From: Bacillota bacterium
Lineage (GTDB): Bacteria > Bacillota > Bacilli > Alicyclobacillales > SLC66
DNA: 64,000 nucleotides
Direction of reading: 5' to 3'
Assembly (NCBI GenBank): GCA_021820975.1
Contig: JAKADA010000008.1
Location: forward strand, 2,621 to 66,620
Made by a program: the position numbers and the translations under genes. Shown here piece by piece: positions 3,301 through 64,000 of the stretch. Within the stretch, counting starts at the first letter, position 1. Each line of letters begins with the position of its first letter. The notes below the pieces were generated by a model. That model ran no database searches. It was not told the origin of the DNA and was given only the letters and a program-made list of their open reading frames with translations.

Positions 3301-4904
3301 CGCACCATGATATTTATTCGATTGAAGATTTATCCGAACTTATTCATGATTTAAAAAATGCCAATTCATCTGCCCGTATTAGCGTTAAGCTTGTGTCGGA
3401 AGTCGGTGTCGGCACGATCGCAGCTGGGGTTGCCAAAGGCAAGGCTGACGTTGTGCTTGTAAGTGGCTATGATGGTGGCACGGGAGCGTCTCCTGAGACG
3501 AGTATTCAATATGCTGGATTACCATGGGAACTCGGTCTTGCTGAGACACATCAAACACTTCTCTTAAATAAATTGCGTGATCGTATCGTCGTTGAAACGG
3601 ATGGCAAATTGATGACGGGTCGAGATGTTGCTATTGCCGCTTTACTTGGTGCCGAAGAATTTGGTTTTGCTACAGCGCCTTTGATCACGCTTGGGTGTGT
3701 GATGATGCGTGTATGTCATCTCGACACTTGTCCTGTTGGCATCGCCACGCAAAATCCTCTTTTACGAAAAAACTTTACGGGAAAGCCCGAATATGTCGAG
3801 CATTTCATGCGCTTTGTAGCACAAGAATTACGCGAGATTATGGCACGGTTAGGGCTAAAAACTATGGAGGACATGGTTGGTAGAACAGATTTGCTGACGA
3901 TGTCTGATGAGCTTAAGACAAGTAAGGTGCAAGGAATCGACTTATCGAAGTTGTTATATCAGCCCAAGGCGAAAGACGATGTAGCACGATTTAAACAGAT
4001 CGATCAGAATCACGGTATTGAGCAAACGTTAGACGCAACGTCCCTCGTCGCTGCGGCGAAATCTGCTCTTGAATCGGGTGATAAAGTAACAGCAAGTTTT
4101 CCCATTCGAAATACCAATCGTGTGACAGGCACACATTTGGGGAGTTTGGTGACGAGACGTTACGGTGCTAAGGGGTTACCTGATGATACGATAGAGTTTC
4201 ATTTTGAAGGGTCAGCTGGTCAAAGTTTTGGAGCTTTTCTTCCGAGAGGAATGACGCTTTTTCTGTGCGGTGATGCCAATGATTATGTGGGTAAAGGGCT
4301 ATCGGGAGGACGCATTGCTATTTTTGCACCTTCGGCATCCTCTTTTATTGCGCATGAGAATATCTTAATCGGCAATGTGGCATTGTATGGCGCAACAGCG
4401 GGAGAAGCATTTTTTGCCGGGCAAGCTGGGGAACGATTCGCTGTTCGTAACAGCGGGGCAACAGCTGTTGTTGAGGGTGTGGGAGATCATGGTTGTGAAT
4501 ATATGACAGGTGGGCGCGTTGTCGTACTAGGACGGACAGGGCGCAATTTTGCTGCGGGTATGTCTGGTGGTATTGCTTATGTGTTCGATGAGGATGGTGA
4601 TTTTTCAGCTCGTTGCAATCAAGACATGGTTCTGCTCGAGACGTTCACTGATGAGGAAGAAGCTTCATGGGTCAAAAACATATTGAAAAGTCATGTTCAT
4701 TTTACAAAAAGTGCGAAGGCAAACGATATATTGACAGACTGGCAAGTGACAAAGGCAAAGTTTGTTCGAGTAATTGCTAAAGATTATAAACGCATGTTGT
4801 CTTCTGTGGAAGAGGCAAAAGCTTTCGGCCTTACTGGACAACAAGCTATTATGGCAGCTTTTGAATTAAACAAAAACGACCTTGCACGCGTGGGCGGCAA
4901 TTAA
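306..4904 (+). CDS. gltB: Glutamate synthase large subunit
   Basis: 1532-aa ORF. N-terminal amidotransferase Cys in [11 protein letters not shown], plus the FMN/Fe-S central domain and C-terminal GXGXG region typical of GltB. An alternative ATG at 312 has better RBS spacing. Confidence 0.97.
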
Positions 4905-10330: not shown

Positions 10331-11446
10331 ATGGCTGAAGAGAGGAAGAAACCGGCTGTTGGCTTACAACCGGAAAACGAAGTCGATTGGTCCGATTATC
10401 GCGGCATTTTAGTCGTCGTTGAACAAAGAGACAGTGTGGCCAAAAAGGTATCGTGGCAACTTCTAGGTGAATCAAAACGGATGGCTGATAAATTACAGGC
10501 CCCTTTAATGGCTCTTGTGATTGGACATCATGTTGAACAACTTGCCCATGAAGCCGTGTACTATGGAGCAGATAAAGTATTTTATTGTGATTCCGAAGAA
10601 TTAAAGGATTACCGTACAAGACCTTATAGCAAACTTTGTTTACATGTCATTCGACAATACAAACCAGAAATTGTTCTCTTTGGGGCCACGTATACGGGCC
10701 GTGACTTAGCTGGAGCTATTGCTACGCATTTGCCAACAGGCTTGACAGCTGACTGCACGCAACTTGACGTTAACGAGGAGCGCTTGCTGATGGCAAGTCG
10801 ACCGGCATTTTCAGAGAAAATGCTTGCGACTATTCTTTGCAAGCAATTCAAACCGCAAATGGCAACAGCTCGATCAGGCGTTTTTCAAGCACTACAACGC
10901 GATGAAACACGTACAGGGGAAATCATTACGGTAGATCCACAGATGCCAGAGAATGAAATTGCAACGCAAGTGCTTGAATTTATCGAGTCTACGCAAGGCG
11001 TCAACTTGGAAGATGCAGAAGTTATCGTTTCTGGTGGCCGCGGTTTAGGCGGACCGGCGGGCTTTAAAGTTCTTCAGGAATTGGCCGATGCTCTCGGTGG
11101 CGTTGTAGGGGCATCACGTCCAGCGTTTGAAGCTGGTTGGATAAGTCATGATCACCAAGTTGGGCAGACTGGCTCCACGGTGCGACCAAAGCTGTATATC
11201 GCATGTGGTATCTCAGGTGCTGTGCAACACACGGTAGGTATGCAACATTCTGATTATATTGTGGCCATTAATAAAGACCCGGAGGCACCAATTTTTAAAA
11301 TTGCTAATTATGGAATTGTTGGTGATCTCTTTGAAGTGGTACCCGCACTTGCAAAAGCGATGAAATCCCGCAAAAAGGGTAATCCACAAGGTGTTGGCGC
11401 CGTTATCGGGGATGCTGTAGCTGCGGCACAATCCGTGCATAATTGA
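10331..11446 (+). CDS. etfA: Electron transfer flavoprotein alpha subunit (FixB-type)
   Basis: 371 aa. C-terminal FAD-binding block PKLYIACGISGAVQHTVGM. Confidence 0.9.
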   Translation: MAEERKKPAVGLQPENEVDWSDYRGILVVVEQRDSVAKKVSWQLLGESKRMADKLQAPLMALVIGHHVEQLAHEAVYYGADKVFYCDSEELKDYRTRPYSKLCLHVIRQYKPEIVLFGATYTGRDLAGAIATHLPTGLTADCTQLDVNEERLLMASRPAFSEKMLATILCKQFKPQMATARSGVFQALQRDETRTGEIITVDPQMPENEIATQVLEFIESTQGVNLEDAEVIVSGGRGLGGPAGFKVLQELADALGGVVGASRPAFEAGWISHDHQVGQTGSTVRPKLYIACGISGAVQHTVGMQHSDYIVAINKDPEAPIFKIANYGIVGDLFEVVPALAKAMKSRKKGNPQGVGAVIGDAVAAAQSVHN

Positions 11447-41997: not shown

Positions 41998-42150
41998 CTC
42001 TTATCGAGAGTGGCGGAGGGACTGGCCCGACGAAGCCCGGCAACCAACATGGTTTTTTTCCATGAGAGGTGCTAAATCCAGCAGGCATTGCCTGAAAGAT
42101 GAGAGAGAACGTCTGGGTTACAGCCGCTTCTCTTCGAAGGGGTTTTTTTA
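41998..42150 (+). promoter_or_regulatory. SAM-I (S-box) riboswitch
   Basis: CTCTTATCGAGAGTGGCGGAGGGACTGGCCCGACGAAGCCCGGCAACC...GGTGCTAAATCCAGCAG...GAAAGATGAGAG matches the S-box core. A U-run at 42143-42149 precedes metY. Confidence 0.92.
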
Positions 42151-56302: not shown

Positions 56303-56377
56303 GGGGAATTAGCTCAGCGGTAGAGCACTGCGCTGGCAGCGCAGGGGTCAGGGGTTCAAATCCCCTATTCTCCACCA
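56303..56377 (+). tRNA. tRNA-Ala (anticodon GGC), CCA encoded
   Basis: Cloverleaf read by hand: acceptor GGGGAAT/ATTCTCC with the G3:U70 alanine identity pair, anticodon loop CTGGCAG, T-arm AGGGG TTCAAAT CCCCT, 3' ACCA. Confidence 0.93.
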
Positions 56378-56726
56378 ACAAAGCGAAAAACGAACACCGT
56401 CTTTTTTTCATTTGGTTTTGCTGTGACCGTTTGGTTAGAGAGTGCAGGAACATCATGAAGATGTGGGGTTATTACCCTCATCTTTTTTTGTTATACTACC
56501 CATGAATTGATTGCATCCTGCTGACTGTACGATGCGAGTCGAGCGAATACCTTTCATTAAGGGAGATGACTTCCTTTGGTCGTCTCTCCCCGTTCATTCA
56601 TTATTTTTTGCTTTTTGGTCAAGTACTTTCGCGGCATATCCTCGCTTCGCTGCGGTATTCCACGGTTACTTGACCCTTTCAGGGGTTATCTGTTTTTCGT
56701 TAGATAAAGAATTCGGGGGGATTTTC

Positions 56727-57785
56727 TTGAAATATTTTAATCTTTTTTCTCGTTGTTACCTTGCAGGAACTCTGTTATTTGCGGGATTCATTGTGCCAAC
56801 AATTGCTGAGGCAGCCACCACCACCACACTCAACCTTACCTCTTCCCAGCGTATCGCCTACCCTAATGAGTCTGCGTTGATAGCGAATCTTGTAAAGGCG
56901 AATGATGCGATAGTAAATGCATTTTCAAGTAATCAATTGGATGCTAGTTTTTACACAAGACTCACAAATAGCTTGAATGCTATCCAGACTAGGTTAATGA
57001 GCGGCAAAGAGTTTTATCTAGTAACTCAATTACAAGCTGCGATCAAGGAGACAGGGGCTGTTTTAGCGAAAGATCCGGGTCAAAACTATGATATTCAGCA
57101 TGCGTATCAAGGTACGTTAGCAGTGTACAGTAATCTTCAAGAAGAAGCGAGTGCATTAACCACGTCAGGGGTATCTGGAGTGTCCAAGGGGAAGGTAACT
57201 AAAGCCACACAAACGTATCACTTTGAGGACGCTCAAATTATTGTAGACGGTAAACCTGTGGTAGTAAAGGCGGCTAAGTTTGTCTCTGGGGGTACGACAT
57301 TTGTAAGTTTGTATGACGCAGAGTTATTGATCCGTAATCTTACGGGGGATAAGCATGGTGCCCCAGTTGTGGATAGCAACGGTAATGTTCATCCTGTTGA
57401 GCATTGGAATGGTAAGACAAAGATTTGGGATATTGGTTGGGAGCATTCTGTAGGGAATACGATTGCACATTCTCATGGCAATGCTCAGTTTCAAATTGAC
57501 CAGACGACAGTTATTGATGCGCCAGTTATCATAACCAGACCTAAAGGTGATCCTCAACCTACAGTATTCGTACCGATCTGGTATGTCCAGCAAATTGTCG
57601 ACCAACTCATTTTCACAAATAGCACCACGGATGTATGGAAGGGTTCCTCGAAGCCAGCCAAGTGGGTAATTTCGTTCAATCGGAACCAACAGTATACGAC
57701 AAACCATGTAGGTATGGGGGTAAATGGTGGTGGGTCAGGTGGCGGGGGTCCTGTCCCAGGTTGGGGTAATTGGGGTAAGCTTTAA
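56727..57785 (+). CDS. Secreted protein with copper-amine-oxidase-N-terminal-like (stalk) repeats and a Gly/Trp-rich tail
   Basis: TTG 56727 after a GGGGGG RBS. Signal peptide ...PTIAEAAT. Two IxVDGKPV...F(V)...-type stalk repeats. Tail GGGSGGGGPVPGWGNWGKL. Confidence 0.6.
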   Translation: MKYFNLFSRCYLAGTLLFAGFIVPTIAEAATTTTLNLTSSQRIAYPNESALIANLVKANDAIVNAFSSNQLDASFYTRLTNSLNAIQTRLMSGKEFYLVTQLQAAIKETGAVLAKDPGQNYDIQHAYQGTLAVYSNLQEEASALTTSGVSGVSKGKVTKATQTYHFEDAQIIVDGKPVVVKAAKFVSGGTTFVSLYDAELLIRNLTGDKHGAPVVDSNGNVHPVEHWNGKTKIWDIGWEHSVGNTIAHSHGNAQFQIDQTTVIDAPVIITRPKGDPQPTVFVPIWYVQQIVDQLIFTNSTTDVWKGSSKPAKWVISFNRNQQYTTNHVGMGVNGGGSGGGGPVPGWGNWGKL

Positions 57786-57887
57786 ACTTTTCAATCTAAA
57801 CCTTTGTACCACTAACGCGTAGCATGCAACACTGTCAACTAGAAGTATTACAGTAAACATTTTTCCACAAAGTAAGGTTGTGCTCAA

Positions 57888-58195
57888 GTGAAAATAACCT
57901 CATACAAGGGTGTATCATCAAGGACAAGCAGAGGTGTCCTATCAAAAGCCAGGTATCTAATAGACAACGATCTTTTTGTAGTAAAGGCTAACTCCACTGG
58001 TAAGTTTAAATCCTTATGGCGAGTGGCGTATGAACCGTATTCCGAGGTAATGGCGTCAAGAATAGCGAATGTAGGTTGGATAGATCACGTACACTACACA
58101 TTAGAGGACGCAAAGTTTTTCCTGATATACAGGTTGGTGGAGTCAAGCATGTATCTGTGTGTAAAAACTATTTACTAATGGGTACAGTAGTGTAA
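57888..58195 (+). pseudogene. Frameshifted/truncated gene remnant (possible HipA-like kinase N-terminal fragment, tentative)
   Basis: The 96-aa ORF changes into a more protein-like frame (...FFPDIQVGGVKHVSVCKNYLLMGTVV*) at the T5 run 58116-58120. The combined length of about 103 aa is still short. Confidence 0.4.
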
Positions 58196-58304
58196 CACTA
58201 AGGCGTTTTGCTTTATCGAATGGGGTAAGGAACTCAGTGAGTTGGGCTTATGATCACTAAATACACTTTATTTCTTAGTCGATAGAAACACGAGATATTA
58301 TTTT

Positions 58305-58328
58305 AAAAAAGAGGAGGTTAGTCCTCTT
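58305..58328 (-). terminator. Terminator at the rep 3' end
   Basis: AAGAGGA ggttag TCCTCTT with flanking A/T runs; overlaps the rep stop codon. Confidence 0.65.
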
Positions 58329-59283
58329 TTTTCATCAGTTTATTGAATTCAGCTTTAGTTATAGGTGGCAGAAAATTTTGTTCATTAGGCCGAGAAAAAC
58401 ATTGCACTTTATGGATTCTGCGCTTTAAAGCCAGCCAAGTTGACATGTGTTCCTCTCTGATGGAGGGATATTGTTGTTCCAATGGCATGTTACTAATCAT
58501 ATAAACTGTACTATAACATGCTTGTCGGTTATTGTATCGGGCGGGTAGCTGGATAGGATAACCATCAAGATAGTTCAGCATGTCGCTAATTTTGATTTGG
58601 CTTCTAAACTCGTCAAACAACAACACATCTTGGCATTCATATTGATCAAAAGGATGGTCATAATCGGATACGCGGTACACGTTGCGGTAACCGTACTTTT
58701 CCATGACATGCCGCGTTTTGCCGCTTCCAGTTGAACCCCAAATATAGATAACTTCCAGATTACGAAAAGTGGTTTTAAACTGTTCTGCCTTAACCATTAA
58801 TCGGGCGCGATCTATTTTGTCCAAGTGGAGGATGTGTTCAGGTGTTTCCTCGATAATTTCAAAATTACTCATACCTGCTTTTACCATGTCGTACAAATCA
58901 GCCAAGTCGTTTCTGGCACCTTGACGCTCAACGGGCATTTCTCCGTGTTCTTCAAAGGTTCCGGGAATTGCCGTACCATGTTTTTGATCGTTTTCCCATT
59001 TGCCTGACTTCATAATGTAATCCCTGTTTTGTTCGGAAGTGCCCTTGGCGATTTCAAGGTGGGCTTCATTAAAACAGTTTTTAACCGTTGAAAAACGGAC
59101 AGCGGAAGAGAAGACCACATAGATATGTGAATGGTGTGTGGAACCTGATTCGTCGGCTATGCAGTAGTAAAGCGTAGATTTGAGACTGTCTAATGTAGCT
59201 CTGATTTTATCGTGGTCGAAACCGTGATCAAGTGGATTATTAATTGTGATTTGCCATTTTCTTGATTGGGTATCTTTTGCCAT
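58318..59283 (-). CDS. Rolling-circle Rep / relaxase-like protein: HUH endonuclease fused to an SF3 helicase
   Basis: Motif I WQITINNP, motif II HHSHIYVVF, motif III RDYIMKSGK (YxxK). Walker A GSTGSGKT, Walker B VLLFDEF, motif C MISNMP. AGGAGG RBS. Confidence 0.85.
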   Translation of the reverse strand: MAKDTQSRKWQITINNPLDHGFDHDKIRATLDSLKSTLYYCIADESGSTHHSHIYVVFSSAVRFSTVKNCFNEAHLEIAKGTSEQNRDYIMKSGKWENDQKHGTAIPGTFEEHGEMPVERQGARNDLADLYDMVKAGMSNFEIIEETPEHILHLDKIDRARLMVKAEQFKTTFRNLEVIYIWGSTGSGKTRHVMEKYGYRNVYRVSDYDHPFDQYECQDVLLFDEFRSQIKISDMLNYLDGYPIQLPARYNNRQACYSTVYMISNMPLEQQYPSIREEHMSTWLALKRRIHKVQCFSRPNEQNFLPPITKAEFNKLMKKED

Positions 59284-59302
59284 GTAATTTGAACCTCCTA
59301 TT

Positions 59303-59316
59303 ATGCGACATGCGAC
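59303..59316. repeat. Tandem heptamer ATGCGAC x2 (iteron-like), rep-proximal side of the hairpin
   Basis: Read directly at 59303-59309 and 59310-59316. Confidence 0.8.
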
Positions 59317-59319
59317 GTA

Positions 59320-59350
59320 AGTTGGCTAGGTAATACTGGTCTAGCCAACT
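59320..59350 (-). other. Origin-like stem-loop with nonanucleotide CAGTATTAC in the loop
   Basis: AGTTGGCTAG gtaatactggt CTAGCCAACT (10-bp perfect stem). The loop on the rep-sense strand reads ACCAGTATTAC. Confidence 0.75.
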
Positions 59351-59355
59351 GTCTG

Positions 59356-59369
59356 TCGCGCTTCGCGCT
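59356..59369. repeat. Tandem heptamer TCGCGCT x2, distal side of the hairpin
   Basis: Read directly at 59356-59362 and 59363-59369. Confidence 0.8.
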
Positions 59370-59415
59370 CCAGGGTCGGGACGGCTTTGGGCTGCGCCCC
59401 GCCGCCCTCCTCGAG

Positions 59416-60129
59416 CTATAGCGGACGTGAAACGGCCTTGCGGATATACGATTCCAGCTTGGCTACATTCTGTACAGCAGGCACCTTTATAGCTGCCAAA
59501 TCGGTACCATTCACAAGCATGTGACCGTAACCAACACCAGAAATAGGTTCCATTTTGTCGCGATCAAAGCCAAACATTAATGCACTTTCTTTACTGATGT
59601 TCCCCATCGCAATCACTAGACCGAAATTGTCACGCGATTTAGCGAAATATTCCGCGTCGGCTCGCTGCTGGCTAATGAGTACATGGACGTTGAATGCCCT
59701 TCCCAACATCAGGAGCGTGGATAATTTCGCACGAGCGGTTTCAGCTTCTTTCTTGTCTACCGTGTTGAGAAAAGAGGCCCATTCATCGAACATCAAGAGC
59801 CTGAAATCACGGCTGGTATCCTCACCTCGTTGACGTGCGAGGAAGGCATGATAGTAGCTGTCCAGCCCATTGGTACAGTCCGAAAATTCGTAGTGGTTTG
59901 GCAAACCTCTTAATCCAATGAAATCATCGGCCTTGAAATCACACAGGACAACACCAGCATTCTTGATGTGTAATCCGATTCGCGCGATGATCAATTTAAC
60001 TAAAAAGGTTTTCCCTGAGCCAGTTGGCCCCACCAAAATAGCGTGGGGCACCTTGGCATAATCCCAGCGGCGGTAATGGTACACGCCGTCAGTTAACAGC
60101 ATAGAATCCAACGCGATATCGATGCCCAT
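59416..60129 (-). CDS. FtsK/SpoIIIE-family ATPase (DNA translocase / coupling-protein-like), soluble domain only
   Basis: Walker A GPTGSGKT, Walker B LLMFDEW, and a QQRAD block. 237 aa with no TM segment. Confidence 0.8.
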   Translation of the reverse strand: MGIDIALDSMLLTDGVYHYRRWDYAKVPHAILVGPTGSGKTFLVKLIIARIGLHIKNAGVVLCDFKADDFIGLRGLPNHYEFSDCTNGLDSYYHAFLARQRGEDTSRDFRLLMFDEWASFLNTVDKKEAETARAKLSTLLMLGRAFNVHVLISQQRADAEYFAKSRDNFGLVIAMGNISKESALMFGFDRDKMEPISGVGYGHMLVNGTDLAAIKVPAVQNVAKLESYIRKAVSRPL

Positions 60130-60134
60130 TTTGA

Positions 60135-60812
60135 TTAAAAATCCTCGTCGGTTGGTTCCGGTGGAGGTGGAGCAGCCTCTTCAAATTGCGAATTGATTAC
60201 AAATCGCAATTTGTCGTTGTTATCGACGATGATCAAGTCAATATACAAGGTAGCTGCATCATCGACGATGCGATCTATCCAAAAAATCGGGATTTGATTA
60301 TCTAATGATGCAAATGGGATGTTTTCGACGTTCCCAGCGCGAAGTTGTTCATTGATGCGCGTTTGAAGAATCTTTTTGATCATCTGCAAATCATTTGGTT
60401 CCCAATGTCCACGTTTAGTTTTAGAAACTTTTACTTTAACGATTTCCATTCCATTACGTATTGCGAGTGATGGCGTTTTGACAATGTCGAGCACATCAAG
60501 CGGACGAACAGTACCAATTCGATTGTGAATTTGGGAAATTACTTTGAATAATTCTTGATAAGCCGATTCGACTAAATTAAAAACGGGCGCTGGTGGCGCT
60601 TTGGGACGTTGGTCGTAGGCTAAATACCCCAAAAAGGTGATGGCTAATACGGGTATTCCCCAATATTTTATCGTCGCCAGTAACACAATGACGGTTATGA
60701 GGCTAAACACCATCACTCCAATCGCGATCTTGTCGTTATCAGTTAGTTCTTTCTTTATAGCACGCTGCACGATTTCGATCGCTCTATGCATCTTTTCGAT
60801 ACTTTTCTTCAT
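60135..60812 (-). CDS. Element-encoded 2-TM membrane protein with a Pro-rich acidic tail
   Basis: 225 aa. TM pair IAIGVMVFSLITVIVLLATI / IPVLAITFLGYLAY. Ends 5 nt before the FtsK-like gene. Confidence 0.6.
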   Translation of the reverse strand: MKKSIEKMHRAIEIVQRAIKKELTDNDKIAIGVMVFSLITVIVLLATIKYWGIPVLAITFLGYLAYDQRPKAPPAPVFNLVESAYQELFKVISQIHNRIGTVRPLDVLDIVKTPSLAIRNGMEIVKVKVSKTKRGHWEPNDLQMIKKILQTRINEQLRAGNVENIPFASLDNQIPIFWIDRIVDDAATLYIDLIIVDNNDKLRFVINSQFEEAAPPPPEPTDEDF

Positions 60813-61219
60813 GATTTATTTCCACCTTTGACTAAAATCGCTTTTTCTGCTTTGCATGAAAGTTGATAGTTTCCCGAGCGATCTCTCCAAAACTTACCCT
60901 CGAATGAGACAAAGGTAATGAGTGTCGATTCGGTGAGTAAATCGACTGTGATAATAGGCGGCAAATCGGGGACTTTGACCAAGATTTTCTCATATCCCGC
61001 CTGCGGACAAACGCAAGTGTACGCGATGCCGCCAATTTTATCTGTTTTCACATTGCTCTCATAAACGTTGTACGGGCTCATGGTCACCAGCAGCACTTCG
61101 TTTGCGTGGGCGATGCTAGGCAAATCAAGTCGAACGTCTTCTGGACGCATGACAATCATCCTTTCTGGTTTTATGGATTGATACAAATTCCTCAAACTCT
61201 CCTTGGTGTTGTTCTGCAT
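60809..61219 (-). CDS. Element-encoded hypothetical protein
   Basis: 136-aa ORF with ATGA overlap to the downstream gene. The true start may be the internal ATG (MRPEDVR...) preceded by AAAGGA. Confidence 0.5.
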   Translation of the reverse strand: MQNNTKESLRNLYQSIKPERMIVMRPEDVRLDLPSIAHANEVLLVTMSPYNVYESNVKTDKIGGIAYTCVCPQAGYEKILVKVPDLPPIITVDLLTESTLITFVSFEGKFWRDRSGNYQLSCKAEKAILVKGGNKS

Positions 61220-61295
61220 ACCTCCTCACGTCAGCGATGATGATGGAGGCGATGTGGCGGGCTTGTTCGTCTGAAATTTGGAATTGCTGGTTCAC
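61125..61295 (-). CDS. Candidate 56-aa protein (below the ORF-track cutoff)
   Basis: GTG 61295 lies 8 nt after GGGAGG. Translation MNQQFQISDEQARHIASIIIADVRRYAEQHQGEFEEFV... Its tail overlaps the next ORF out of frame. Confidence 0.35.
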   Translation of the reverse strand: MNQQFQISDEQARHIASIIIADVRRYAEQHQGEFEEFVSIHKTRKDDCHASRRRST

Positions 61296-61386
61296 TCGCC
61301 TCGCCTCCCTCTTCGCATTTTCAATTTACCATTTGGCCGTAAAAATGAACAGACACGAATATATAAACTCGGATTAATGAATTATG

Positions 61387-61415
61387 TTGAAAAAAAGATC
61401 ATTATAGTGTACACT
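61387..61415 (+). promoter_or_regulatory. Promoter TTGAAA-17-TACACT with overlapping palindrome AGTGTACACT
   Basis: Hexamers at 61387-61392 and 61410-61415; 10-bp palindrome at 61406-61415. Upstream of the XRE gene. Confidence 0.45.
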
Positions 61416-61448
61416 AAGAACGAAATTATCGATAGGGCGTGGAAAATT

Positions 61449-62099
61449 ATGTTTAACATGACTGATGAAATGTTAGCCTCTACTTTTGCAATTAGAACAA
61501 ACGCAAGGAGGAAACAATTAAAAATCACACGCGAGGAACTTGCCCAATATGCGGAAATCTCAACCAGCACATTGGCCTCATATTTGCGTGAAAAAGAACC
61601 CGTCGTACCCATGTTGCGTGCGGCAATCAGAATGGCAGATAAACTCGGGGTTTCATTAGCTTACCTTTGTGGTTTGGAAAATGAAGGAGACTTTACTCCC
61701 AATGGACTTTCGGCAGAAGTCATTTTAAAGAATCTTTATCGCTCCATTCTGGAAGCTCAGCTAAATTGGCATTTTGAAAATAATAAAGTTGTACTAGAAA
61801 GTGATAATCGGTTCATTATGTCTTTTTTGATACACATCAAGAAAGATTCTTCAAGAGATAAGCTAGATAGCTCGATTTTTAAGCATTTCAAAGACATCAA
61901 ACTCTGGAAAGGTCGAATGGTAACAGATGAAGAATATAAAGAGTTGAGTTACATTGAATATGTGTATGGAGACATTACAGAAGGAGATGATCTTTATCCT
62001 GATGAATTAAATGGACTAATAGAATTGCGGAAACAGCATTGGGAGCAAACAGGAGGGAACCCCACAGAATATTTACATGAAGAGAGGGAGGAAAAGTGA
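61449..62099 (+). CDS. XRE-family HTH regulator (element repressor-like)
   Basis: ARRKQLKITREELAQYAEISTSTLASYLRE helix-turn-helix. Start set at ATG 61449. Confidence 0.75.
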   Translation: MFNMTDEMLASTFAIRTNARRKQLKITREELAQYAEISTSTLASYLREKEPVVPMLRAAIRMADKLGVSLAYLCGLENEGDFTPNGLSAEVILKNLYRSILEAQLNWHFENNKVVLESDNRFIMSFLIHIKKDSSRDKLDSSIFKHFKDIKLWKGRMVTDEEYKELSYIEYVYGDITEGDDLYPDELNGLIELRKQHWEQTGGNPTEYLHEEREEK

Positions 62100-63607
62100 A
62101 CGTCGTCATCTACGCACGCTATAGCAGCCACAGCCAGACCGAACAGTCCATAGAGGGTCAAATTAAGGTCTGCGAGGAATTTGCTTCTAAAAATGAATAC
62201 ACCATCATCAGCAGGTACATTGATCGGGCAATATCTGGAACTACTGACAATCGTCCTGAATTTTTACGCATGATTGAAGATTCCAGCCGAAAACAGTTTC
62301 AGGGTGTGCTGGTCTATCAATTGGATCGATTTGCTAGAAATAGGTATGATTCAGCGATATACAAAGCAAAATTGAAGAAAAATGGTGTAAGGGTATTTTC
62401 GGCAAAGGAAAATATTACCGATGATGCAAGTGGAATTTTGGTTGAGGGATTGCTGGAAAGCATGGCGGAATATTATTCAGTAGAGTTATCGCAAAAAATA
62501 AGGAGAGGGCTCGATTTGAATGCACAAAAACAGTTGGCAACAGGTGGAAATGTTGCGCTTGGGTATAAAGTAGACGAAGATAGGAAATTCGTCATTGATG
62601 AACATGGGGCTGAGATTGTCAGAATGGTTTATGAAATGTACGCTGATGGAAAAACCATCACGGAAATCAATCAACATTTAAATAGCTTGAATTATCAATC
62701 ATCAAAAGGGTCAGCATTTAATAAAAATTCGCTGACCAAAATGCTGAGAAACAAACGGTATATTGGTATTTATACCTATAAAGACATGGAAGTTAAAGAT
62801 GGTATTCCACGCATTATATCGGATGAACTTTTTGAGAAAGTGGCTGAAAGGCTGGGCAAGAATAAGCAGGCTCCTGCTCGAAGCAAAGCGAAAGCACAAT
62901 ATCTACTAACCACTAAGTTGTTTTGTGGACATTGCAACGAAATGATGACAGGGGAGAGTGGGACATCCAAAACAGGGAGAATATATAATTATTACAAATG
63001 TAATCATGCTAGGAAAAAATTGTGTCATAAAAAGACTGTTAAAAAAGATTATATCGAAAATTTGGTGATTGACGAATGTAGGACATTACTAACGGATGAA
63101 AATATTGAAAAAATCACCGTTGAAGTTATGAAGATAAGCGAGCAAGAAAAAGATAAATCTCACATCAAGTTATTGACTAAGCAACTTAAGGAAAATGAGC
63201 GTAAACGAAACAATGTTGTTACTGCCATCGCTGAATGCGATTTAGAAGCAGTTAGAAAAACATTGTATGAACATATTCCTGTTTTGGAAGAAGAGAGAAA
63301 GCATTTGGAGATGCAACTCTCTACGGAACAGCTATCACGAGTCAGTCTGACTGAACCTGAAATCAAGTTTTTTCTTTCTCATTTGAAAAATGGGAATATG
63401 AATGATGAAAAGTATCGTCAAACTCTAGTCAACGTATTTATCAATTCAATATATCTTTACGATGACAAAATGACACTGATTTTCAACTCCAGTAATTATC
63501 CTGCAAATATTGAAGTGGATTTGCTTGGTGAGGTTGAAGCTAATAATAAGGATTACGAGAGTTCGTTTTTAGTATCGAACGCTCCACCAAAAAACCCGCG
63601 TAAATAG
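62096..63607 (+). CDS. Large serine recombinase
   Basis: Resolvase catalytic N-terminus VVIYARYSSHSQ...GQ, recombinase domain, Cys-rich zinc-ribbon CGHCNEMM...YYKCNHARKKLCHKK, and a coiled-coil. GTGA overlap with the XRE stop. Confidence 0.9.
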   Translation: MNVVIYARYSSHSQTEQSIEGQIKVCEEFASKNEYTIISRYIDRAISGTTDNRPEFLRMIEDSSRKQFQGVLVYQLDRFARNRYDSAIYKAKLKKNGVRVFSAKENITDDASGILVEGLLESMAEYYSVELSQKIRRGLDLNAQKQLATGGNVALGYKVDEDRKFVIDEHGAEIVRMVYEMYADGKTITEINQHLNSLNYQSSKGSAFNKNSLTKMLRNKRYIGIYTYKDMEVKDGIPRIISDELFEKVAERLGKNKQAPARSKAKAQYLLTTKLFCGHCNEMMTGESGTSKTGRIYNYYKCNHARKKLCHKKTVKKDYIENLVIDECRTLLTDENIEKITVEVMKISEQEKDKSHIKLLTKQLKENERKRNNVVTAIAECDLEAVRKTLYEHIPVLEEERKHLEMQLSTEQLSRVSLTEPEIKFFLSHLKNGNMNDEKYRQTLVNVFINSIYLYDDKMTLIFNSSNYPANIEVDLLGEVEANNKDYESSFLVSNAPPKNPRK

Positions 63608-63616
63608 CGGGTTTTT
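63594..63616 (+). terminator. Terminator after the recombinase
   Basis: ACCCGC gtaaata GCGGGT followed by TTTTT. Confidence 0.7.
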
Positions 63617-63634
63617 GCCATTTCAAAGTTGATT

Positions 63635-63705
63635 TTGTAGACAAATTGTAGACAAGCGATTTTTCGATGCCCAATCTTCGTGTTGTCTGTAGACAAAATG
63701 TCTAC
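63635..63705. repeat. Cluster of TGTAGACAA motifs including the palindrome GTAGACA-aaa-TGTCTAC
   Basis: TTGTAGACAA at 63635-63644 and 63647-63656. TTGTCTGTAGACAAAATGTCTAC at 63683-63705. Confidence 0.8.
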
Positions 63706-63902
63706 GGGAGTTTGGAGTTTTGGGTAAAGGACTGTGTTGGCAGAGTGGAAGGGTGATCACCTTACGCGAAGGTGCTCAAGCCACGCACTCCATACATGTG
63801 GAGTGTGTAGTGTCAATACACCGTGTTGGCAAATAGTTGGGACACCTAAACCAGATTTCTATGATTGAAGGATCGGTCGTTATTTTACGCTTACCTGTCT
63901 AA

Positions 63903-63935
63903 AGCCTAGGCGGCTTATTGCCTGGGCTTTTTTTG
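63903..63935 (+). terminator. Rho-independent terminator closing a noncoding stretch
   Basis: AGCCTAGGC ggcttatt GCCTGGGCT followed by T7. Confidence 0.7.
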
Positions 63936-64000
63936 TTGTGGTTTCCAGTCAGTTTGCGGAGAACCCTATCACAAGTAGTGGTAAAGCAGAAGTTCGAACT

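What the first reader, a model, noticed from the sequence alone, without database searches (positions are those of the whole stretch)
58270..63705. Compact (about 5.4 kb) integrated element combining serine recombinase, XRE switch, HUH-SF3 Rep and an FtsK-like translocase
Five leftward genes run from a divergent control region at 61296-61448: a 56-aa ORF, a 136-aa ORF, a 2-TM protein, the FtsK-like ATPase and Rep. Two rightward genes (XRE, large serine recombinase) run the other way. The genes are tightly coupled (ATGA/GTGA overlaps) and the region is visibly more A+T-rich than the flanking core genes. The module set (integrase, regulator, Rep and a single FtsK-family ATPase) resembles actinomycete AICEs and Firmicute IMEs, but is minimal in size and uses a serine recombinase. 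No relaxase of a classical MOB family and no T4SS genes are present.
Basis: partly seen in the sequence, partly recalled or inferred. Interest (0 to 1): 0.7.

Follow-up and report, generated by a model that had tools for sequence, protein, structure and literature searches.

The report
tRNA-integrated rolling-circle plasmid, serine integrase
This is a real, intact-looking mobile element of an already described kind (an integrated bacterial plasmid with a circovirus-like replication protein), but it is about 7.2 kb, not 5.4 kb, and a serine integrase has placed it at the end of an alanine tRNA gene.

Summary
The delimitation and the novelty claim do not hold.

**What it is.** The Rep (58318-59283) is a circovirus-type HUH+SF3 protein of the pCRESS2 group (Kazlauskas 2019). 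This is the Rel_PF02407 "relaxase" of class-7 integrative mobilizable elements (IMEs; Coluzzi 2017). Both papers already describe such Reps next to FtsK/TcpA-like ATPases in integrated elements of 3-28 kb.

**New findings here:**
- The true ends are the 3' end of tRNA-Ala (attL, 56370-56395) and a site inside the 3' end of the integrase gene (attR, 63561-63590). They carry a 9-bp direct repeat and a perfect 10-bp inverted repeat. A relative has the same architecture at a tmRNA gene. The element is about 7.2 kb and carries cargo.
- The replication origin lies between rep and the ATPase gene. It is a hairpin with an AGTATTAC loop plus two GTCGCA iterons (Rfam RF03070), conserved with compensatory stem changes in seven relatives.
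- The 2-TM protein and the 237-aa ATPase together look like a split TcpA-like coupling protein.
- The closest relative with a different integration module uses a tyrosine integrase, so the modules are exchangeable.

No excised form or exact empty site was found.

**Verdict:** a new variant of a known kind, of moderate interest.

The parts
56303..56377 (+). tRNA-Ala(GGC) gene. Its T-arm and 3' acceptor strand form the B arm of the integration site, and the gene stays intact after integration.
   Evidence: ARAGORN and Rfam tRNA at 69.7 bits. A relative (L014) has a tmRNA gene ending exactly at the equivalent junction.
56370..56378 (+). attL copy of the 9-bp direct repeat CTCCACCAA, the common core that contains the predicted crossover.
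   Evidence: The same 9-mer occurs at 63582-63590. There are 4 copies in the window against 0.38 expected.
56379..56397 (+). P' arm of attL: CAAAGCG followed by AAAAACGAAC (56386-56395), the inverted partner of GTTCGTTTTT in attR.
   Evidence: The 10-mer occurs only twice in 64 kb, at these two places and in inverted orientation. L014 has the same arm 8 nt after the tmRNA 3' end.
56551..56695 (+). Cargo: a conserved two-hairpin leader-like motif with a terminator-like hairpin, upstream of the 352-aa gene.
   Evidence: About 80% identical to L014 5511-5643 in the same orientation. The RNA fold has z = -3.45. A terminator-like site lies at 56671-56688. No Rfam family matches.
56727..57785 (+). 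Cargo: a 352-aa predicted secreted protein of unknown function.
   Evidence: ORF and gene call. No Pfam, NCBIfam, PHROG or PADLOC hit. A homologue lies beside rep in the related element L004.
57888..58178 (+). Cargo: a 96-aa ORF with no detectable relatives, which may not be a real gene.
   Evidence: cluster of one.
58318..59283 (-). Rep: an HUH endonuclease (motifs WQITIN, HSH, YIMK) fused to an SF3 helicase (GSTGSGKT, VLLFDE). It belongs to the pCRESS2 type.
   Evidence: Pfam. PCV2 Rep 7LAR matches at E = 6e-11 over residues 7-275. It is 41-42% identical to pCRESS2 references, against 32-34% for pCRESS3 and 26% for pCRESS1. There are 3376 homologues.
59304..59349 (-). Replication origin and putative oriT. 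The stem is GTTGGCTAG/CTAGCCAAC (59341-59349 / 59321-59329). The loop carries AGTATTAC (59330-59337), with the predicted nick between 59332 and 59331. Two iterons, CGTCGCA and TGTCGCA, lie at 59304-59317.
   Evidence: Rfam RF03070: 38.6 bits here, and 46.7 and 44.4 bits in L011 and L005, against a gathering score of 41.5. Seven relatives keep the hairpin with fully compensatory stems. L025, an eighth locus, keeps it too.
59350..59426 (-). Two conserved GC-rich hairpins between the ATPase gene and the nick hairpin. Candidate roles are a single-strand origin or an operon terminator.
   Evidence: The same three-hairpin layout, with covarying stems, occurs in 6 relatives. The region is 59% GC.
59416..60129 (-). 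FtsK/SpoIIIE-family ATPase of 237 aa without a membrane anchor. It is read as the motor half of a split TcpA-like coupling protein.
   Evidence: Pfam, NCBIfam and PHROG hits. PDB matches to EssC/FtsK and to pCW3 TcpA 6O1W. It is 50% identical to the C-terminal half of the 463-aa fusion protein P0253.
60135..60812 (-). 225-aa protein with an N-terminal helix, a two-TM hairpin and a cytoplasmic alpha/beta domain. It is read as the membrane/N-domain half of the split coupling protein.
   Evidence: AF2 model with pLDDT 92.9. The best-quality structural match is pCW3 TcpA 6o1x_A (probability 0.90, rmsd 3.9 A, 116 columns, E = 0.11). It matches residues 22-221 of the fusion protein P0253.
60809..61150 (-). 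113-aa conserved core protein of unknown function, predicted all-beta.
   Evidence: Present in all relatives that carry the core. The model is low-confidence at pLDDT 47. No family hits.
61125..61295 (-). 56-aa first gene of the leftward operon. It travels with the XRE/serine-integrase module and is a candidate excision factor or anti-repressor (inference).
   Evidence: tblastn hits only in the serine-integrase relatives L011 and L014. The tyrosine-integrase relative L005 has an HTH_17 excisionase-family gene upstream of the core genes instead.
61296..61448 (.). Divergent control region between the leftward operon and XRE-integrase.
   Evidence: Direct reading of the sequence. One promoter-like site lies at 61387-61415 (+), but such sites are not enriched over shuffles.
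61449..62099 (+). XRE-family HTH regulator of about 216 aa. It overlaps the integrase start by 4 nt.
   Evidence: Pfam HTH_3 at 3e-8 and PHROG repressors. Relatives are 215-221 aa.
62096..63607 (+). Large serine recombinase (integrase). The last 17 nt, encoding KNPRK plus the stop codon, lie beyond attR in host DNA.
   Evidence: Pfam three-domain architecture and PHROG integrase at 6e-120. Five relatives are colinear up to '...APP' and then diverge completely.
63561..63590 (+). attR: the P arm GTTCGTTTTT-N11 followed by the direct repeat CTCCACCAA (63582-63590).
   Evidence: The P arm is conserved in the window, L010, L011, L014 and L025 (one mismatch in L025), while the sequence after it differs in each. 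Searches give the counts.
63589..63616 (+). B' side of the target: the terminator hairpin that followed tRNA-Ala before insertion (AAAAAACCCGC-GTAAATA-GCGGGTTTTT). This is host DNA, not part of the element.
   Evidence: Direct reading of the sequence. All five relatives have a different hairpin directly after the junction.

Best explanation
The locus is a ~7.2-kb site-specifically integrated rolling-circle plasmid, equivalently an integrative mobilizable element (IME), of the pCRESS2 / Rel_PF02407 kind. It occupies window 56379-63590.

**Integration (anatomy shown, chemistry inferred).** A large serine recombinase joined the element's attP to the 3' end of tRNA-Ala(GGC).
- The predicted attP is ...GTTCGTTTTT-N11-CTCCACCAA-N7-AAAAACGAAC...
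- attP overlaps the last codons of the recombinase gene.
- The enzyme appears to read the T-arm (GGTTCA/GAATCC) and the alanine-type acceptor strand CTCCACCA. This would explain why a sister element sits at a tmRNA gene.

**Regulation (inferred).** An XRE repressor at a divergent control region keeps the leftward operon silent. That operon is p56, p113, the 2-TM protein, the ATPase and possibly rep.

**Replication and transfer (inferred).**
- After excision, Rep binds the two GTCGCA iterons.
- Rep nicks AGTATT|AC in the hairpin loop, as circovirus Rep does.
- It then drives rolling-circle replication of the circle.
- The same nick probably serves as oriT. The Rep-bound single strand would be handed to a membrane-anchored FtsK/TcpA-like coupling protein. 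Here that protein is split into a 225-aa TM/N-domain subunit and a 237-aa ATPase subunit.
- The strand would then be exported through the T4SS of a co-resident conjugative element.

**Shown:** gene content, family membership, origin anatomy and its conservation, att-site anatomy, and exchange of the integrase module among relatives.

**Inferred:** nicking, replication, excision, repression and mobilisation.
For: **Rep family**
- Pfam Viral_Rep plus RNA_helicase.
- PCV2 Rep 7LAR at 6e-11 over 269 residues.
- Closest to pCRESS2 reference sequences.
- Kazlauskas 2019 describes these Reps in integrated elements with FtsK-like ATPases.
- Coluzzi 2017 and Guedon 2017 treat them as relaxases always paired with a TcpA gene just upstream.

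**Origin**
- RF03070 hit at 59304-59348; relatives exceed the gathering score.
- Seven relatives keep a 9-12-bp stem with completely different, compensatory sequences.
- All keep an invariant (T)AGTATTAC loop and Rep-specific iterons 3' of the stem.

**att sites**
- Five recombinases are colinear to '...APP' and then diverge. Each is followed by a different hairpin.
- The 10-mer AAAAACGAAC occurs only twice in 64 kb, at the two ends and inverted.
- The 9-bp direct repeat sits at the tRNA 3' end and in the recombinase gene.
- L014 repeats the whole architecture at a tmRNA 3' end.
- The GTTC motif lies 21 nt from the core in P and 16 nt in B, in both elements. This 5-bp shift is the one described for serine-integrase attP versus attB (PMC3783163).

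**Coupling protein**
- A natural 463-aa fusion of both halves exists.
- The fold matches pCW3 TcpA, and the ATPase matches FtsK/EssC/TcpA.

**Mobility**
- The same core carries a tyrosine integrase at tRNA-Arg in Alicyclobacillus.
- Serine-integrase relatives lie in unrelated contexts.
- The orthologous tRNA-Ala in a related species lacks the element.
Against: - No excised circle was found. An attP pattern gave 0 hits in the metagenome and viral collections.
- The exact empty attB was not found.
- Every assembly of this species that could be retrieved and that spans the locus carries the element. A MAG contig of the same species (L015) ends at 57974, inside the cargo.
- No helper T4SS was looked for or seen, and only 64 kb of the genome is in hand.
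- The window's own RF03070 score (38.6) is below Rfam's gathering score (41.5).
- The B' half-sites show no conserved motif.
- The spacing between the two 10-mers is odd (27 nt), so the crossover dinucleotide cannot be fixed.
- A third, inverted copy of CTCCACCAA at 58134-58142 is unexplained.
- No recombination directionality factor has been identified.
- The relaxase role of PF02407 Reps is itself only a proposal in the literature.
Confidence: 0.75

Rival explanations
1. It is an integrated rolling-circle plasmid that is not mobilised by conjugation. Rep serves only to replicate and maintain the excised circle. The TM protein and FtsK-like ATPase would act in segregation, or in a self-sufficient TraB-like double-strand transfer as in actinomycete AICEs.
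For: - Kazlauskas 2019 calls these elements plasmids and the ATPase a 'DNA segregation ATPase'.
- Mobilisation of any PF02407 element is untested.
- FtsK-family hits are weak at the Pfam level.
Against: - The closest structural and sequence analogue of the pair is the conjugative coupling protein TcpA of pCW3.
- The gene order (coupling protein immediately upstream of the RCR-type gene) is the one seen in Tn916/ICEBs1-type ICEs and in IMEs.
- TraB-type transfer is known only from mycelial Actinobacteria (established knowledge).
- No clt-like repeats were seen.
Confidence: 0.15
2. It is a domesticated or decaying remnant, fixed at tRNA-Ala in this lineage. It no longer excises or replicates.
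For: - All retrieved assemblies of this species that span the locus carry the element.
- No attP or empty attB was found.
- A relative (L003/L004) has a homologue of the cargo gene beside rep, so long vertical residence is conceivable.
Against: - All seven core ORFs are intact.
- The 9-bp direct repeat and the 10-bp inverted repeat are perfect.
- The origin is intact and conserved.
- Close relatives occupy different loci and hosts.
- Only about four assemblies of the species exist, so absence of an empty site has little weight.
Confidence: 0.08
3. It is a provirus or satellite of a single-stranded DNA virus, packaged into particles rather than transferred by conjugation.
For: Rep and the nonanucleotide hairpin are of circovirus type. 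GasCSV-like viruses nest within pCRESS2 in the published tree.
Against: No capsid, terminase or other virion gene was found by Pfam or PHROGs in the 7.2 kb. Kazlauskas 2019 found none in any pCRESS element. A membrane-anchored FtsK-like ATPase is not a virion component.
Confidence: 0.02

Closest known systems
pCRESS2 integrated plasmids (p4M-like cluster; Kazlauskas, Varsani, Koonin & Krupovic 2019, Nat Commun 10:3425), e.g. SolMoo-E1 (3.3 kb, tRNA-Ala), CloCit-E1, HugHat-E1
   Same: - HUH+SF3 Rep with YxxK motif III, 41-42% identical to pCRESS2 references.
- An FtsK-like ATPase encoded next to rep.
- Site-specific integration, often at tRNA genes.
- No virion genes.
- Bacillota hosts.
   Different: - The published elements were described with tyrosine integrases and longer att repeats (13-88 bp). 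This one uses a large serine recombinase whose attP overlaps its own 3' end.
- The ATPase is split from its membrane/N-terminal domain.
- The origin hairpin was not described in the parts of that paper that I read.
IME class 7 of streptococci (Rel_PF02407 + TcpA; Coluzzi et al. 2017; IME_SiniSF1_ebfC = StrIni-E1, 5.2 kb)
   Same: - PF02407 'relaxase' with a TcpA-type FtsK-like coupling protein gene directly upstream.
- Own integrase, no T4SS, and a size of a few kb.
- Proposed helpers are ICEs with an FA-type T4SS.
   Different: - In that survey every IME with an RCR-type relaxase had a tyrosine integrase, and serine integrases went only with canonical MOB relaxases.
- The streptococcal Reps belong to pCRESS1, not pCRESS2.
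- Their coupling protein is a single polypeptide.
Circovirus / CRESS-DNA virus origin of replication (PCV2 Rep, PDB 7LAR)
   Same: - A stem-loop with (T/A)AGTATTAC in the loop.
- Short iterons directly 3' of the stem.
- The origin lies immediately upstream of rep.
- A two-domain Rep.
   Different: - No capsid gene.
- A double-stranded element integrated in a bacterial chromosome.
- Iterons are GTCGCA rather than CGGCAG (the latter from memory).
TcpA coupling protein of Clostridium perfringens plasmid pCW3 (PDB 6O1W-6O1Z)
   Same: Two N-terminal TM helices, an N-domain and an FtsK-like ATPase core. It works with a non-canonical relaxase in Bacillota.
   Different: - Here the protein is encoded as two genes (225 + 237 aa).
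- Sequence similarity is weak (E = 0.004 for the ATPase; Foldseek E = 0.11 for the N-domain).
- pCW3 supplies its own T4SS.
Large serine integrases with defined attP/attB (Listeria A118/LI integrase; Rutherford et al. 2013)
   Same: - Resolvase + recombinase + zinc-ribbon domains.
- An attP of about 47 bp with distal inverted motifs at the positions expected for the zinc-ribbon domain.
- The same motif is shifted 5 bp inward in attB.
   Different: - The target is the 3' end of tRNA-Ala or tmRNA, regenerated after insertion, rather than the interior of a protein gene.
- A 7-9-bp common core.
- attP lies inside the integrase ORF.
[quoted passage not shown]
   Same: Small size, tRNA integration, and Rep plus a single FtsK-family ATPase.
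   Different: - AICEs use TraB for double-strand transfer in mycelial Actinobacteria.
- They have tyrosine (rarely serine) integrases and unrelated Rep families.
- The present ATPase pair resembles TcpA.

Membership tests
pCRESS2 (p4M-like) bacterial Rep elements | Two-domain Rep: HUH endonuclease followed by an SF3 helicase | tested here: met
   Pfam Viral_Rep residues 8-92 and RNA_helicase 179-261. PCV2 Rep 7LAR aligns over 7-275. Motifs WQITIN, HSH, YIMK, GSTGSGKT and VLLFDE were read in the sequence.
pCRESS2 (p4M-like) bacterial Rep elements | Groups with pCRESS2 rather than pCRESS1, pCRESS3 or the YLxH supergroup | tested here: met
   BLASTP gives 220-221 bits and 41-42% identity to two pCRESS2 references. 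pCRESS3 gives 135-163 bits and pCRESS1 gives 81 bits. Motif III is YxxK, not YLxH. No phylogeny was built.
pCRESS2 (p4M-like) bacterial Rep elements | Element shares an FtsK-like ATPase and lacks virion genes | tested here: met
   There is no capsid or terminase hit among the nine element-encoded ORFs.
IME with RCR-type relaxase and TcpA (Coluzzi class 7) | Own integrase with recognisable att sites | tested here: met
   attL at 56370-56395 and attR at 63561-63590. The same architecture occurs in L014.
IME with RCR-type relaxase and TcpA (Coluzzi class 7) | PF02407 protein with a TcpA-type coupling protein gene immediately upstream | tested here: met
   The gene order is TM225 - ATPase - origin - rep. 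The TcpA likeness rests on the fusion protein P0253, the fold match to 6o1x and the sequence match to 6O1W. CONJscan profiles were not available.
IME with RCR-type relaxase and TcpA (Coluzzi class 7) | Tyrosine integrase (invariant association in the 2017 survey) | tested here: not met
   The integrase is a large serine recombinase. The close relative L005 does have a tyrosine integrase.
IME with RCR-type relaxase and TcpA (Coluzzi class 7) | Excision and helper-dependent conjugative transfer | not testable with these tools
   No attP or attB junction was found in the public collections.
Large serine integrase system | Resolvase catalytic domain + recombinase domain + zinc ribbon domain | tested here: met
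   Pfam E-values are 1e-29, 4e-20 and 1e-10.
Large serine integrase system | attP with distal inverted motifs; the same motif 5 bp closer to the centre in attB | tested here: met
   A perfect 10-bp inverted repeat lies 27 nt apart in the reconstructed attP. GTTC starts 21 nt (P) versus 16 nt (B) before CTCCACC, in both the window and L014. The rule comes from PMC3783163. It was met only for the left half-sites; B' shows no motif.
Large serine integrase system | 2-bp crossover and a recombination directionality factor for excision | not testable with these tools
   The crossover is predicted within CTCC (63582-63585) from symmetry alone. p56 is only a positional candidate for the directionality factor.
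Rfam RF03070 (ssNA-helicase motif) | Score at or above the gathering threshold of 41.5 bits | tested here: inconclusive
   The window scores 38.6 bits (E = 4e-4). The homologous sites in L011 and L005 score 46.7 and 44.4, and L003 and L014 score 38.6 and 38.4.
CRESS-DNA virus / provirus | Capsid protein gene | tested here: not met
   No Pfam or PHROG virion hit in any ORF.
Actinomycete AICE | TraB-type translocase with clt locus, in an actinobacterial host | tested here: not met
   The synteny (SASP spore protein gene; the speD cluster includes a protein named 'Bacilli bacterium') and the Rep relatives point to Bacillota. The best structural analogue of the ATPase pair is TcpA.

The most novel reading that the evidence does not exclude
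The serine integrase recognises the T-arm plus the alanine-type acceptor 3' strand shared by tRNA-Ala and tmRNA. Its attP lies inside its own coding sequence. Integration therefore swaps the enzyme's C-terminal tail: 26 residues (TKRKTNTVFF...) in the circle versus 5 residues (KNPRK) in the chromosome. This tail switch would help set the direction of recombination, making it a self-encoded directionality device. It would operate on an element whose circovirus-type Rep and origin double as conjugative relaxase and oriT.
Probability: 0.12. Interest if true: 0.65.

Novelty: new variant of a known kind. Interest (0 to 1): 0.38.

Why it matters
**Background.** These elements are thought to be the bacterial stock from which the replication modules of eukaryotic CRESS-DNA viruses arose. 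They are also among the least studied mobilisable elements of Bacillota.

**What this locus adds:**
- A precise, testable origin: hairpin, nick position and iterons. This ties the orphan Rfam motif RF03070 to pCRESS2-type Reps.
- Precise attP and attB sequences for a serine integrase that targets tRNA-Ala and tmRNA 3' ends. Such targets are usually associated with tyrosine integrases. The site could be useful as a conserved landing site for genome engineering.
- Evidence that the TcpA-like coupling protein can be split into two subunits.

None of this overturns current views. It makes replication-versus-relaxase experiments straightforward to design.

Tried and rejected
**Boundary ideas tested and dropped**
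- A 7-bp repeat TGATCAC at 58251/63757, which coincides with the end of metagenome contig L002 at 58252. About 23 such 7-mer matches are expected by chance. The same sample also has a contig break inside the element at 61112-61252.
- A CAAAGTT repeat at 58111/63624 and a TCAAAGTT motif downstream of three integrase genes. This lies in host DNA beyond attR and is absent from the left flanks of the relatives.
- An inverted GGTGGAG at 58136 with a putative 'AC' crossover that would restore the 96-aa ORF plus terminator. It was superseded by the tRNA-end solution, which is reproduced in L014. The 9-mer itself remains unexplained.
- A tRNA-Ala-like fragment at 63722-63746 is not significant (score 22, against a shuffle maximum of 28).

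**Searches that found nothing**
- Exact empty site CCCCTATTCTCCACCAAAAAACCCGCG in JGI metagenomes: 0 hits.
- Family-wide attP pattern in metagenome and viral contigs: 0 hits.
- The genome-contig scan with Rep returned only 4 loci, none from the host.
- The left end of the larger relative L011/L026 is not within reach.

**Function predictions that failed**
- The p113 structure model is too poor (pLDDT 47) to search with. Only 3 homologues were retrievable.

**Literature and look-up limits**
- The Weinberg 2017 supplement describing RF03070 is not held.
It was reached through cluster members.

Full report
**1.

The ORFs are real.

Leftward genes:
- **Rep**, 58318-59283, 321 aa. Pfam Viral_Rep 7.5e-12 and RNA_helicase 7.7e-5.
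- **A 237-aa P-loop ATPase**, 59416-60129. It gives weak FtsK_SpoIIIE, DUF87 and AAA_10 hits, EccC and CedB hits in NCBIfam, and a full-domain PHROG FtsK/SpoIIIE-like hit at 2e-16.
- **A 225-aa protein**, 60135-60812, with no family hit.
- **An ORF listed as 136 aa.** Independent gene calls on identical DNA give 113 or 125 aa, and relatives are 109-114 aa. I take it as 60809-61150.
- **A 56-aa ORF**, 61125-61295.

Rightward genes:
- **An XRE HTH protein.** It most likely starts at 61449 (216 aa), because relatives are 215-221 aa.
- **A 503-aa large serine recombinase**, 62096-63607 (Resolvase, Recombinase, Zn_ribbon_recom).

The 4-nt overlaps are present. The A+T bias is small: 41.5% GC against 43.8 +/- 0.8% for equal-sized windows elsewhere. 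It is carried by the XRE and integrase genes.

**2. The Rep belongs to a described family**

- A homologue search returned 3376 proteins. Many are 55-80% identical and come from Alicyclobacillus, Paenibacillus, Lachnospiraceae and other Bacillota, where they are mostly named 'replication protein'.
- The best solved structure is full-length porcine circovirus 2 Rep (7LAR, 6e-11, residues 7-275).
- I compared the Rep with reference sequences copied from the supplement of Kazlauskas et al. 2019. It scores 220 bits with pCRESS2, 135-163 with pCRESS3 and 81 with pCRESS1. Its motif III is YIMK (YxxK), not YLxH.
- That paper states that elements with pCRESS1-3 Reps share FtsK-like ATPases, are integrated (97.5%), often at tRNA genes, and range from 3.3 to 28 kb.
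- Coluzzi et al. 2017 and Guedon et al. 2017 independently call the same proteins Rel_PF02407. They define IME class 7 as Rel_PF02407 + TcpA and note that the tcpA gene lies just upstream of the RCR-type gene.
- ICEscreen carries profiles for this superfamily.

A 5.2-kb example (S. iniae) is already in both papers.

**3.

- Rfam RF03070 ('ssNA-helicase') matches 59304-59348 on the rep strand (38.6 bits, E = 4e-4).
- The site is a hairpin with stem GTTGGCTAG/CTAGCCAAC. Its loop contains AGTATTAC, the circovirus-type nonanucleotide.
- Two iterons, CGTCGCA and TGTCGCA, an AGGAGG ribosome-binding site and the rep start follow it.
- The same arrangement is found upstream of rep in L003, L005, L011, L014, L007 and L009.
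  - The stems are GTTGGCTAG, GATTTCCAGG or ACACAAAAGG, which are fully compensatory.
  - The loop is constant.
  - The iterons change with the Rep: TTGTGTTAT x2 in L009.
- L011 and L005 exceed Rfam's gathering score.
- Two further GC-rich hairpins upstream are conserved with covarying stems in six relatives, including L025.
- By analogy with circovirus Rep (established knowledge), the nick is predicted at AGTATT|AC, between 59332 and 59331.

**4. Relatives and modularity**

Exact-protein look-ups gave the following contexts.
- **L001/L022:** the same genome, 100% identical. It extends the right flank by 5.3 kb.
- **Serine-integrase relatives:** L003/L010 (Rep 80%), L011/L012/L026 (integrase 74%), L014 (73%) and L025 (67%). 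All have p113, the 225-aa protein, the ATPase, the origin, rep, and XRE plus serine integrase, in unrelated neighbourhoods.
- **L005, Alicyclobacillus sp. SP_1 (Rep 76%):** it has the same four core genes. Its integration module is a tyrosine integrase next to tRNA-Arg, with an HTH_17 excisionase-family gene upstream of the core genes.

The core and the integration/regulation module are therefore exchangeable, as described for IMEs.

The 56-aa gene is detectable only in serine-integrase relatives. This makes it a positional candidate for a directionality factor or anti-repressor. That is inference only.

**5. True boundaries**

Right end:
- The five serine integrases are colinear up to '...SSFxxxAPP' and then have unrelated tails.
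- At the DNA level, homology stops after GCTCCACC(A), at window 63581-63589.
- In every case a different hairpin follows the junction.
- The P-side sequence GAGAGTTCGTTTTT-N11-GCTCCACCA is conserved beyond what coding requires.

Left end:
- The inverted partner of GTTCGTTTTT is AAAAACGAAC. It occurs only twice in the 64-kb window, at 63561-63570 (-) and 56386-56395 (+).
- The latter lies 8 nt after the CCA end of tRNA-Ala(GGC) (56303-56377).
- The last nine bases of the tRNA region, CTCCACCAA (56370-56378), are repeated at 63582-63590.

Independent confirmation:
- L014 shows the same structure at a tmRNA gene (ARAGORN; Rfam 212 bits; ends at 4297).
- There...GCCTCCACCA|ACCAAGTTAAAAACGAACAC forms attL and GTTCGTTTTT-N11-CTCCACC|TTACAT forms attR.

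Fit to the serine-integrase rule:
- In both elements GTTC starts 21 nt before the core in the P arm.
- It starts 16 nt before the core in the B arm, which is the T-arm GGTTCA/GAATCC.
- This is the 5-bp inward shift of the zinc-ribbon-domain motif in attB reported for serine integrases (Rutherford et al. 2013).

Consequences:
- The element is 56379-63590 (7212 bp counting one repeat).
- The tRNA is regenerated.
- The hairpin AAAAAACCCGC-GTAAATA-GCGGGTTTTT after attR is the tRNA's own terminator.
- The integrase ORF ends in host DNA. In the circle it would read on into the P' arm to give 524 aa.
- Symmetry places the crossover within CTCC, but the 27-nt spacing is odd, so the dinucleotide cannot be fixed.

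**6. Cargo**

The region 56379-58317 holds:
- a conserved two-hairpin leader-like motif (56551-56695; RNA fold z = -3.45), which recurs in L014's cargo region;
- a 352-aa secreted protein with no family hit, whose homologue lies beside rep in L004;
- a 96-aa orphan ORF.

Relatives carry other cargo between rep and the left end. L011 and L005 carry RadC plus a 74-aa protein, L011 also carries a methylase and a ResIII helicase, and L014 carries a CAP-domain protein.

**7. The FtsK-like protein is half of a split coupling protein**

- An exhaustive HMMER search with the 225-aa protein found only 42 cluster representatives. Nearly all are about 210-230 aa. One is 463 aa.
- That protein, P0253, aligns to the 225-aa protein over residues 22-221 and to the 237-aa ATPase over residues 227-460 (50% identity).
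- An AlphaFold model of the 225-aa protein (pLDDT 92.9) shows an N-terminal helix, a TM hairpin (25-46, 48-67) and an alpha/beta domain.
- No Foldseek hit is significant by E-value. The only geometrically good match is pCW3 TcpA (6o1x_A; probability 0.90, rmsd 3.9 A over 116 columns).
- The ATPase matches the same TcpA chain from residue 124 onward.

Together these support a two-subunit TcpA-like coupling protein. The support is moderate, not proof.

**8. Is it mobile?**

For:
- Intact ORFs, perfect repeats and a conserved origin.
- Relatives at different loci.
- An orthologous tRNA-Ala in a related species (speD region 84% identical) that lacks this element and carries a different island flanked by a partial tRNA copy.

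Against, or unknown:
- Every retrieved assembly of this species that spans the locus contains the element. The contig of MAG L015 ends at 57974, inside the cargo.
- Neither the exact attB nor a family-wide attP pattern was found in the JGI metagenome or IMG/VR collections.
- No helper T4SS could be sought.

**9. Verdict**

This is a real and probably functional element of a known kind: a pCRESS2 integrated plasmid, equivalently a PF02407/TcpA-type IME. Four features were not found in the literature read here:
- a serine integrase;
- a tRNA-Ala/tmRNA target, with attP inside the integrase gene;
- a split coupling protein;
- an explicit origin assignment.

I score 0.38.

Noticed in passing
L022 8135-10879 (about 650 nt to the right of window position 63607, beyond the window end): The 914-aa helicase next to the element is a full-length match (1288 bits) to the PADLOC candidate defence gene PDC-S53. 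A 216-aa gene and a PLD-like 520-aa gene follow it. The tRNA-Ala locus therefore looks like an island hotspot.
   Followed up: partly
window 63791-64000 (continues to about 64021 in L022) and L022 about 11090-11340: A ~230-nt sequence with a terminator-like hairpin (63901-63930) is repeated at 71% identity. One copy lies upstream of the helicase gene and the other upstream of the 216-aa gene. Its function is unknown, and it caused a contig break in one assembly (L024).
   Followed up: partly
window 63630-63700: Direct and inverted copies of TTGTAGACAA (including the palindrome TTGTCTGTAGACAA) lie just outside attR. They could be an operator or a recombination site of the neighbouring island.
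   Followed up: no
window 56551-56695; L014 5511-5643: A conserved ~125-nt two-hairpin motif followed by a terminator-like hairpin lies upstream of the secreted-protein cargo gene. An ~80% identical orphan copy sits in a related element. No Rfam family matches, so it may be an undescribed cis-regulatory leader.
   Followed up: partly
window 58134-58142 (-): A third, inverted copy of the att core 9-mer CTCCACCAA sits at the border between cargo and core, with AAAAAC 20 nt further on. It could be a relic of an earlier end of the element or a chance match.
   Followed up: partly
window 62096-63607 with 56379-56460: Because attP lies in the integrase ORF, the predicted protein ends in KNPRK when integrated. 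In the excised circle it would end in TKRKTNTVFFSFGFAVTVWLESAGTS. Each relative has a different host-encoded tail.
   Followed up: partly
L016 10551-11494 (also L017-L021): In a related species the orthologous tRNA-Ala(GGC) is followed by a Uma2-family gene and a 55-nt partial copy of the tRNA. IS605-type TnpB and PemK/MazE genes come next. This is a different integrated island at the same tRNA.
   Followed up: partly
window 57974, 58252 and 61112-61252: Independent assemblies of this organism break at these positions: MAG contig L015 ends at 57974, and metagenome contigs L002 and L023 end or overlap at 58252 and 61112-61252. The break at 61112-61252 coincides with the border between the core module and the integrase module. 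This may reflect co-occurring variants.
   Followed up: no
window 41998-42105 (+): A SAM riboswitch (RF00162, 86.9 bits), unrelated to the element.
   Followed up: no
P0253 (463 aa, from the representative library): A natural single-polypeptide fusion of the 2-TM protein and the FtsK-like ATPase. It would be useful as the full-length form of this coupling-protein family.
   Followed up: yes
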